Source: Octopus vulgaris | Taxonomy: Eukaryota | Direction of reading: 5' to 3' | DNA length: 64,000 nt | Assembly (NCBI GenBank): GCA_951406725.2 | Contig: OX597821.1 | Location: forward strand, 70,804,001 to 70,868,000 | Part shown: in pieces, positions 17,044-20,395 of the stretch | Layout of the letters: each line of letters begins with the position of its first letter | Numbering within the stretch: the stretch's first letter is position 1 | The notes under the pieces: generated by a model | What the model was told of the DNA's origin: nothing | Database searches by the model: none | Seen by the model: the letters and a program-made list of their open reading frames with translations, nothing else | Program-made: the position numbers and the translations under genes

Positions 17044-18233
17044 GGGGGAGTTTCGATCAAAAGGGATCGTAAAAGGAGAGAAGGAGGACAAAAAAAAGGG
17101 GGGTTAAAAAAAGGGGGAGAGGAAAAAAAAAAAAAAAAAAAAAAAAATTGATCAATAGGGATCGTTATCACAGAAATGTCAATATGAAGTGTAAAGGGGA
17201 GGACAGGTGAGGTTTACCCGTGGAAAGAAAAGCCTACGGAAAAGACCACGGTAACCTCGGTCAATGAAGTCACATTTTATATTTCTTTTTTTTTTTTTTT
17301 TGCAAATAAGCAACTCTCTGTTTTCGATTTCTGGGTTCATAGGACTATGCTCAAGGTGGCTTCGTCATTCATACGTGCCATTCTTGCTACATTCACCCAT
17401 CTTTTTTTAAAACATTCGCTAGACAAAACTTGCCTCTCTACTCTCACTTTCCTTTTCAAGTGGTACTTGAAGAAGTTGATGAGAGATTGACTAGAGAGGA
17501 AAGTGTTTGTCTCCAATCCTTTCAGACGCGTCCACCAGATACATTCTTTCGCCATAGCCACAAGGATGATGAAAATAGCTCTTCCTTCCCGTTTGAAGGA
17601 AGGAGGCGTGACAATATTGACGATAGACTCAGCTGATAAACCGACTCGTCCCACACGTGACAGCAGTTGTTCGACATAAGCCCACAGGTCGGAAATTGTT
17701 GGACACTGAACGAGTGCGTGCAGAACGGTTTCGTCGCTCTGACCGCATCTCGGGCAGGTCGGCCCCGTGTTTCTCGAGCCGTGTCTGTAGAGCTTATCCC
17801 GAACGGGTAGCGCTTCTCGGTAGCACTGCCAGGCCAGGGATCTCTGGAAGTTGTCCATGGGCCCTGGCCCGAAAGTCGTCCTGAACAGGCGGGTCAGGTA
17901 CTCCTCGTCGACGTCCAGGTTCGCCCCGAGCTCGTCGTCGTACCTCCCCTCCACTAAACCCCTATAGAATGCTTTGGTTGTGTTGAAGTCACTTAAGGTC
18001 GACCCAGGACGGCAGAGTTGCTTGAGAGCAACGCGACACTCGCGGTGCCATTCGCCCTTCCTCGGCCTCTTTTTGATCCACGACTGCAGTTCGGTCATGG
18101 AGACGAGCTGCGGGAAAGCGTGCCTCACAAACGGCGACCACACCTGTTCACCGTCGTCTACATAGAGCCGGAGATGTCGCAGTCTCAGCGCGTGTCTGCG
18201 CATCATCAACCACGGCATGCCCAGCCCTCCTTT
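16935..18233 (-). mobile_element. 5'-truncated Tx1-like (L1 clade) non-LTR retrotransposon in (GATA)n
   Basis: GC-rich ORF2 C-terminus, then a T-rich 3' UTR with AATAAA just before the end; (GATA)n on both sides. Confidence 0.9.
17337..18233 (-). pseudogene. Tx1/L1 ORF2 C-terminal fragment with RT-associated zinc finger (zf-RVT type)
   Basis: Uninterrupted frame KGGLGMP...W..YREALP..DKL...[18 protein letters not shown]...W...IWWTR. The N-terminal part of the 452-aa track ORF is only repeat and UTR read-through. Confidence 0.9.
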
Positions 18234-19275: not shown

Positions 19276-19826
19276 AGTTTTAACTGCTCCTTTCTAGTGT
19301 CCTATTATGGTCATCTCTTATGTGTTTAAATGTACACTGTATTTTTCTATGAATAATATATAGTCTATTGACTAAATTTTTTCCTTCTCGTTAGACCACT
19401 GGTAGCATAGAATTTTTCTATAAATTTTTTCTGCTACCCTAAGATTTATTAATTAATGATAAAAGGTTTTTTGGCTAATTTTGAAAGAAAATCGACATCT
19501 TATTTACTGCCGGAAAATCCGCGCGTGCGCGGAGGATTTTGAAAAAGTTTTAACATATAAACACGAGGCATGTTCTTTATCGCCTCGTATCTATATGTGA
19601 GCGTTGGCATCCTGCTGACGAGGCAACGCCAGTTGTAAGTTAAAATTATTTTGTTTAGTTGACATCAGATTGCCGAAACTGTGCATAGTCCAGGAAAGAT
19701 AGGGTAAATGTTTTATTTTTCATTCCCTTTCAGAATTGCAACTATTAGTGGCTTGGAGTTTTAACTGCTCTTTCTAGTGAGTCAGATGTTCTATTATGGT
19801 CATCTCTTATGTGTTTAAATGTACAC
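19276..19826 (+). mobile_element. HHR-bearing non-autonomous unit of about 485 bp with terminal direct repeat (PLE pseudo-LTR / retrozyme-like)
   Basis: Direct repeat 19276-19337 / 19757-19826 brackets the HHR at 19610-19695. Confidence 0.65.
19610..19695 (+). ncRNA. Canonical type I hammerhead ribozyme
   Basis: Stem I tcctg/cagga; CUGACGA 19615-19621; stem II ggcaa/ttgcc; GAAA 19675-19678; self-complementary stem III actgtgcatagt; GUC site, cleavage predicted after 19690. Confidence 0.85.
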
Positions 19827-19904
19827 ACACACACACACACACATAAACACACATATACATAAATACATACACGCACACACACACATACACATACATATAT
19901 ACTT

Positions 19905-20395
19905 TCCTTTTAATTGTTTTACTCATTTGACTGCGACCATGCTGGAGCGCCACCTTGCAGGGTTTTTTCAGTCGAACAAATCGATCCCAGGACTTATTTC
20001 TTAAGCCCAGTGTTTATTCTATCGGTCTCTTTTGTTGAACCACTGAGATACGGGGATGCAAACACACCAACACCGTTTGTCAGACGCTGATGGGGCGGAC
20101 AAGCATATACAGGGACACACGCACATACATATATGCGTGCATATATATATATATATTATAATAAATTAGAGATAAAACCACTATTAGGCAAATCAAACAA
20201 TGAAAAACATAAGCCAATACATAAAATTAATTTAATTTATATTATTTTAAATATATATCAAAAGTATTAAAAGTTTAATAAAAGATAAAGAGTAAAGCAC
20301 TACGATCGTTTCCTGGCTGTACCAATTAGAATAACAATAATTTAAATTCAATTAATAATTCGAGTTATGGTTACAGTCAATCTTCAGGCTGATTG

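What the first reader, a model, noticed from the sequence alone, without database searches (positions are those of the whole stretch)
19276..19826. Perfect canonical hammerhead inside a terminally redundant, hairpin-rich unit of about 485 bp
Seen: all core nucleotides are intact with a GUC site (19610-19695). There are extra hairpins at 19515-19540 (ccgcgc/gcgcgg) and 19563-19588 (acgaggc/gcctcgt), a terminal direct repeat of about 60 bp, and no ORF. Inference: a monomer plus overlap is what reverse transcription of a circular RNA or a PLE pseudo-LTR leaves. This is the best candidate in the window for a still-active ribozyme.
Basis: partly seen in the sequence, partly recalled or inferred. 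Interest (0 to 1): 0.72.

Follow-up and report, generated by a model that had tools for sequence, protein, structure and literature searches.

The report
Decayed copy of Penelope-borne retrozyme
This is one aged copy of a widespread non-coding jumping repeat that carries a hammerhead (predicted self-cutting RNA); the ends of its many sister copies match the footprint of Penelope-type copying enzymes, which likely spread it, but this particular copy is predicted to fold poorly.

Summary
The hammerhead, hairpins, terminal repeat and lack of an ORF are real. The stretch is one copy of a dispersed ~486-nt non-coding repeat; 455 exact core-plus-stem-III matches lie in this genome, against 0 in the control. 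Copies carry the Penelope-like (PLE) footprint: 3' ends in two narrow zones that run into (TA)n, ragged 5' ends, and head-to-head insertions. In 45 of 48 such insertions one arm uses each zone. The two passes of an overlap came from one template. The family hammerhead has a ~48-nt branched loop II and a likely 5-bp pseudoknot, kept in subfamilies only ~70% alike. In 11 of 77 two-armed insertions both arms stop within 40 nt after the predicted cut (3.2 expected), which hints at cutting in vivo. This copy is a poor candidate for activity: it is predicted to misfold by ~11 kcal/mol, rank 62 of 71. Hydra-clade PLEs are the likeliest driver, but no significant sequence link was found. Cleavage and circles are untested. 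The scan already noted similar octopus elements on other DNA. Verdict: new member of the non-LTR retrozyme / non-autonomous PLE kind.

The parts
19276..19337 (+). 5'-truncated start of the insertion: partial second pass of the unit (left copy of the terminal repeat)
   Evidence: contigs of runs X11 and X12 carry a 9-nt piece that this copy lacks, X13 matches the window
19338..19826 (+). one full ~486-nt non-coding unit of the repeat family
19401..19440 (+). tail hairpin; its 3' strand (about 19429-19440) resembles a motif in Hydra-like PLE tails (link not statistically significant)
   Evidence: motif kept in a subfamily ~70% alike
19447..19456 (+). zone II: second preferred 3' end of family copies (inferred RT start); internal in this copy
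19511..19541 (+). GC-rich hairpin
   Evidence: compensatory pairs at 19513:19539 and 19518:19533, inner pairs often broken
19551..19600 (+). long hairpin (acgaggc/gcctcgt core) that competes with the outer extension of hammerhead stem I in the predicted circular fold
19599..19706 (+). type I hammerhead with bulged, extended stem I, long branched loop II and palindromic stem III; predicted cut after C19690
19604..19632 (+). predicted 5-bp pseudoknot, 19604-19608 with 19628-19632 (stem I bulge with loop II)
19635..19663 (+). AU-rich hairpin inside loop II, damaged by several private changes in this copy
19757..19826 (+). right copy of the terminal repeat; the 3' end at 19826 lies in zone I (preferred 3' ends from 19820 across the unit junction to about 19355)
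19827..19895 (+). (CA)n/(TA)-rich microsatellite into which the 3' end runs; no target-site duplication of 5 nt or more

Best explanation
This is an aged copy of a dispersed, non-coding ~486-nt repeat with a type I hammerhead, likely copied into AT-rich microsatellites by the reverse transcriptase and GIY-YIG nuclease of a Penelope-like element acting in trans. Shown: family membership, two narrow 3' end zones ~105 nt apart that run into (TA)n, ragged 5' ends, two-armed insertions with one zone per arm, both passes or arms drawn from one template, and a conserved, covarying hammerhead. Inferred: a PLE protein (most likely Hydra clade) binds the RNA, nicks (TA)n on one or both strands and starts copying internally at zone I or II. 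The template is a circle or a head-to-tail read-through, so copying can pass the unit junction and leave a monomer plus overlap, as here. The hammerhead would process multimers to monomers, as monomer or through the palindromic stem III as a dimer, with a pseudoknot holding stems I and II together. This copy started in zone I, ran one unit plus ~70 nt, stopped, and has since decayed.
For: Family: 81 matches from 40 of 3123 first-look candidates scored; 455 vs 0 control. Ends: of 285 segments in 176 loci, 73 aligned 3' ends at 19362, ~54 at 19453-55 and 21 at 19820-23; true junctions fall in two zones. (TA)4 within 20 nt after the end in 57/81 and 73/95 of the two largest classes vs 467/5700 background. 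78 head-to-head pairs; of 48 with both ends at main sites, 45 pair zone I with II, 3 are I+I, none II+II (p=6e-11). Same template: overlaps differ at 11% and arms at 17% of polymorphic sites vs 40% for random pairs; shared rare variants 10.9 and 8.2 vs 0.9 per 1000. Core conservation 0.97 vs 0.90 overall, position 7 free (the 3' half is biased by pattern selection). On 80 copies 90.8% of cells pair, 55 cells with double changes vs 23.4 shuffled. These footprints match PLE descriptions (PMC8557442 passages; PMC11167929). Hydra-like PLEs here have intact 778- and 899-aa ORFs, a type I hammerhead with ~50-nt loop II and two 3' ends into (TA)n.
Against: No autonomous PLE with sequence homology to the unit was found among the loci examined. 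The tail motif shared with Hydra-like PLEs is not significant (local alignment 135-420 of 500 shuffles as high; weight matrix 268/1000). A Neptune-like family also ends in (TA)n. Most copies read through the predicted cut (24 of 40 at risk), and 5' ends are not enriched within 6 or 10 nt of it (p=0.45, 0.48). One subfamily has an A-A mismatch at the base of stem II (21 of 95). Pseudoknot covariation traces to about one two-step path on the tree, and three divergent copies (L334, L335, L389; also L385) keep only 3-4 of 5 pairs. Cleavage and circular RNA are untested.
Confidence: 0.85

Rival explanations
1. The units are truncated 3' ends (pseudo-LTRs) of an ordinary protein-coding PLE whose body I did not sample.
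For: Same end footprint as coding PLEs; most copies are short (median 210 nt).
Against: 32 of 285 segments exceed one unit and one holds ~2.5 units joined head to tail without ORF. Masked upstream flanks share no coding sequence. No homology to the three PLE families examined.
Confidence: 0.07
2. The repeat is spread by a non-LTR (LINE-type) enzyme, as a SINE-like element, and the two-armed forms come from LINE-style twin priming.
For: LINE-like fragments are common in these loci; 5' truncation and inversion also occur in LINE copies (own knowledge).
Against: 3' ends are internal to the unit at two fixed zones, with no poly(A) or fixed terminus; both arms point outward and each ends at a proper zone; six runs of 5 or more T argue against a Pol III SINE transcript (inference).
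Confidence: 0.05
3. The hammerhead is a passive relic: conserved only by descent, never cutting, and the element spreads from uncut read-through RNA.
For: Most copies read through the cut; in an Anolis PLE, hammerhead mutants did not affect insertion in vitro (PMC11167929); 8 of 9 Xenopus retrozyme dimers did not cleave (10.64898/2026.07.22.740005).
Against: Core kept across subfamilies ~70% alike while stems I and II covary; both arms stop at 19691-19730 in 11 of 77 pairs vs 3.2 expected, at most 2 in other 40-nt bins.
Confidence: 0.15

Closest known systems
Metazoan non-LTR retrozymes (Cervera and de la Pena 2020, PMC7229834; Li, Clavereau and Pollet, bioRxiv 10.64898/2026.07.22.740005)
   Same: Non-coding unit with type I hammerhead, low GC, strongly self-paired predicted circle, coexisting with PLEs; monomers, dimers and partial tandems.
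   Different: 486 nt (above the 170-400 nt of the 2020 paper, within the 51-972 bp of the 2026 survey); mostly dispersed fragments rather than arrays in my sample; no TSD; (TA)n targeting with two-armed insertions; long branched loop II with a predicted pseudoknot; circles not shown.
Hydra-clade Penelope-like elements (Craig et al. 2021, PMC8557442)
   Same: (TA)n targeting, partial tandems, inverted 5' copy, tail on one end; local Hydra-like families have a type I hammerhead with ~50-nt loop II and palindromic stem III.
   Different: No ORF; no significant sequence homology; tail about 105 nt rather than 30-40.
Non-autonomous Chlamys PLEs such as MRC1 (PMC8557442 passage)
   Same: Non-coding, head-to-tail multicopy insertions with pseudo-LTRs.
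   Different: Those usually share 3' sequence with an autonomous family and mostly lack canonical hammerheads; this one has a hammerhead and no matched partner.
Pseudoknot-stabilised hammerheads (Perreault et al. 2011, PMC3088659)
   Same: [quoted passage not shown]
   Different: Here it joins a stem I bulge to a ~48-nt loop II that holds an extra hairpin, in an animal repeat; untested.

Membership tests
Type I hammerhead | CUGANGA / GAAA / UH core with three stems, stem I open | tested here: met
Type I hammerhead | Self-cleavage at the UH site | not testable with these tools
   Only indirect: arm ends at 19691-19730; this copy predicted to misfold
Non-LTR retrozyme | Short non-coding repeat unit with a type I hammerhead, no LTR/PBS/PPT | tested here: met
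   PBS/PPT not searched separately
Non-LTR retrozyme | Tandem units, at least two consecutive complete hammerheads | tested here: inconclusive
   L003 and L375 hold consecutive units; this copy has one hammerhead; long arrays were not searched for
Non-LTR retrozyme | Abundant circular and linear monomer RNA | not testable with these tools
   Only contigs of runs guessed to be RNA were available
Non-LTR retrozyme | Highly self-paired monomer | tested here: met
   Circular-fold z -1.4 to -4.7 in six real units, -8.7 for the family majority
Penelope-like insertion footprint | Partial tandem (pLTR-like) copies, 5' truncation, inverted 5' copy | tested here: met
Penelope-like insertion footprint | Two internal RT start sites giving a tail on one end | tested here: met
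   (45 of 48)
Penelope-like insertion footprint | AT-rich / (TA)n targets, TSD not discernible | tested here: met
Autonomous PLE | RT plus GIY-YIG ORF | tested here: not met
Non-autonomous derivative of a named PLE | 3' sequence homology to an autonomous partner | tested here: inconclusive
   Only an 11-13 nt motif shared with Hydra-like tails, not significant; three PLE families sampled of many

The most novel reading that the evidence does not exclude
A retrozyme whose genomic copies record the PLE mechanism: one protein complex nicks both strands of (TA)n and primes two cDNAs on one RNA at two fixed, non-interchangeable start zones, and in about one in seven two-armed insertions the template was hammerhead-cut RNA. 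That would be in-genome evidence that a pseudoknotted, long-loop-II hammerhead cuts in vivo and that Hydra-clade PLEs mobilise retrozymes.
Probability: 0.4. Interest if true: 0.7.

Novelty: new member of a known kind. Interest (0 to 1): 0.45.

Why it matters
How animal retrozymes get into DNA is proposed but not shown (10.64898/2026.07.22.740005 says the mechanism remains open). This family gives a short RNA with mapped start zones, a strict one-zone-per-arm rule and intact candidate enzymes in the same genome, so the question can be tested in vitro. It also shows a hammerhead form that Rfam misses. The window's own copy adds little; better preserved sisters are the ones to test.

Tried and rejected
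Rfam: no hammerhead match. ADAR-type editing written back into copies: rejected, A>G 18.7 vs T>C 17.9 per 1000, p=0.55. Sharp pile-up of 5' ends at the cut: not seen at 6 or 10 nt; ratio 1.93, p=0.02 at 30 nt, a post hoc window. Flank comparison was confounded by inverted arms and redone with masking. Short antisense matches to a Neptune-like ORF (E 0.25-13) were treated as chance. Tail-motif link to Hydra-like PLEs failed two significance tests. The A19681G change in the stem III palindrome does not change predicted duplex energy (-15.9 both), so it is not a reason for inactivity. Expression: no RNA holder listed; contigs of four guessed-RNA runs cover the family unevenly, much as DNA-type runs do, which says nothing on circles or strand. 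No empty insertion site among the joints shown (31 not shown). My fold ranking handles the A-A subfamily poorly and models neither pseudoknot nor dimer. Literature searches for this family in cephalopods and for twin priming in PLEs listed nothing describing it; supplements of PMC8557442 and Repbase were not seen and may hold it.

Full report
Observation. The sequence holds a complete type I hammerhead at 19610-19695, the only hit of my descriptor in the window. Rfam does not detect it, probably because loop II is about 48 nt (inference). The hairpins, the terminal repeat (62 vs 70 nt, one indel) and the lack of an ORF of 50 aa or more are confirmed.

Family. A search of the own genome (2.8 Gb, 227 contigs) gave 81 matches from 40 of 3123 first-look candidates scored, 80-92% identical over long stretches. 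A core-plus-stem-III pattern gives 455 matches and 0 in the reversed control. I mapped 190 loci; after removing duplicates 285 segments in 176 loci remained. The sample was picked by similarity and by two exact patterns, so it is not random. Median segment length is 210 nt; 32 exceed one unit and one spans about 2.5 units with no ORF. Nearest-neighbour identity has a median of 93.5%; this copy reaches 93.6%. A further subfamily, about 70% like the majority, has copies up to 97.6% alike. Contigs of three unlabelled runs, likely DNA, join the same left flank to the element, two with a 9-nt piece missing in the window, so the insertion is not fresh.

Insertion footprint. Aligned 3' ends are discrete. 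Inspection shows two true junction zones: I, from 19820 across the unit junction to about 19355, and II, 19447-19456; the peak at 19362 is alignment running on into TA. (TA)4 follows in 57/81 and 73/95 cases of the two largest end classes, 17/23 and 5/30 in the smaller ones, against 467/5700 background. 5' ends are spread. There are 78 head-to-head pairs; in 48 both outer ends lie at main sites, and 45 of these combine zone I with zone II, 3 are I+I and none II+II (p=6e-11). This is the PLE pattern of an inverted 5' copy and a tail on one end (PMC8557442, passages and section 11) and fits the two internal RT starts and two-strand cleavage of AT-rich DNA shown for an Anolis PLE (PMC11167929, parts 1-2 of 4). 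Overlapping passes and paired arms come from one template: 11% and 17% differences at polymorphic sites against 40% for random pairs. That fits a circle or a tandem transcript and argues against random template jumping; it does not choose between the first two.

Hammerhead. Core positions are 0.97 conserved against 0.90 overall, with position 7 free. The core is intact in 35 of 46 passes not chosen by a hammerhead pattern. On 80 of 88 spanning copies (8 with large indels or duplications left out) 90.8% of cells pair and double changes number 55 against 23.4 in shuffles (relatedness inflates this). A 5-bp pseudoknot joins the stem I bulge (19604-08) to loop II (19628-32): its first pair is U-A 44, C-G 18, U-G 17, other 1, about one C-G/U-G/U-A path on the tree. 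As a fresh test I fetched 20 loci of divergent subfamilies: of 24 hammerheads, 18 keep 5/5 pairs at a fixed spacing, 4 keep 4/5 and 2 have lost the 5' strand, while stems I and II change in step. Pseudoknots of this purpose are known in all three hammerhead types (PMC3088659, passages). Stem III is a 12-nt palindrome, the usual dimer signature (PMC4209133, part 1 of 4).

Did it cut? Only indirect evidence. Among 68 segments anchored downstream, 24 of 40 pass through the site; enrichment of 5' ends is seen only at a 30-nt window (p=0.02, post hoc). In two-armed insertions both arms stop at 19691-19730 in 11 of 77 pairs (3.2 expected, 0 of 10000 permutations as high; other 40-nt bins hold 0-2), with none of the 11 crossing 19691. 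A weak hairpin at 19693-19726 could also cause fold-back there, so this is suggestive.

This copy. The family majority folds into the hammerhead unaided; this copy does not, and its hammerhead lies 10.8 kcal/mol above the ensemble, rank 62 of 71. It has 30 differences from the majority, 15 of them in 19589-19710, including private changes in the loop II hairpin and the stem I extension. It ends in zone I at 19826, in a (CA)n/(TA) tract, without TSD.

Driver. The genome holds intact PLE ORFs: a Neptune-like 781-aa family whose hammerhead is a short U3-A8 variant, and 778- and 899-aa families with DKT, C-terminal CxxC and CxH and no CCHH, which match the Hydra description (the CxCX5C linker was not seen, no tree was built). 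The Hydra-like families have a type I hammerhead with a ~50-nt loop II and two 3' ends into (TA)n. They share an 11-13 nt tail motif with the unit, but alignment and weight-matrix tests were not significant. I put Hydra as driver at about 60%.

Comparison. It works like a non-autonomous PLE and fits the non-LTR retrozymes (PMC7229834, parts 2-3 of 6; 10.64898/2026.07.22.740005, parts 1-3 of 5), with circles and cleavage untested. Searches listed no description of this family; supplements and Repbase were not seen. That the host is octopus-like is my inference from genome size and repeat content plus earlier notes. The scan's notes, read after my analyses, report similar 485-534 nt two-armed elements in this and other genomes; a sequence look-up did not return them, so I cannot say whether the same-genome note is this family.

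Noticed in passing
L228-L256, 3' UTR of the 781-aa Neptune-like PLE: Minimal hammerhead with the U3-A8 core variant (UUGAUAA), 5-bp stem II and a CAUG palindrome; many intact 781-aa ORFs suggest a young family.
   Followed up: partly
L361-L372: Hydra-like PLE families with intact 778- and 899-aa ORFs, long-loop-II hammerheads; many 778-aa copies have CCGAAGA in place of CUGAAGA in the core.
   Followed up: partly
L192, L193, L200-L206, L209, L211, L220: A second hammerhead repeat family, with two motifs about 240 nt apart in L220.
   Followed up: no
subfamily including L005, L008, L026, L058: A-A mismatch in place of the usual G10.1-C11.1 pair in 21 of 95 copies; other subfamilies have an extra base after A9 or a sixth stem II pair.
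   Followed up: partly
window 19704-19735: GUAAAU followed by a pyrimidine tract and UUUCAG resembles splice signals just after the cut site; PLEs are known to keep introns. No matching joint among those shown.
   Followed up: no
window 17337-18230 (- strand): C-terminal fragment of a LINE-like ORF (zinc-finger-type CPRC motif), interrupted by (GATA)n.
   Followed up: no
window 19900-20130 and 20155-20390: Two very high-copy short repeats next to the element; the first looks SINE-like (recalled, not tested).
   Followed up: no
L373-L382: Younger subfamily about 70% like the majority, copies up to 97.6% alike, with the same two end zones; better material for bench tests.
   Followed up: partly
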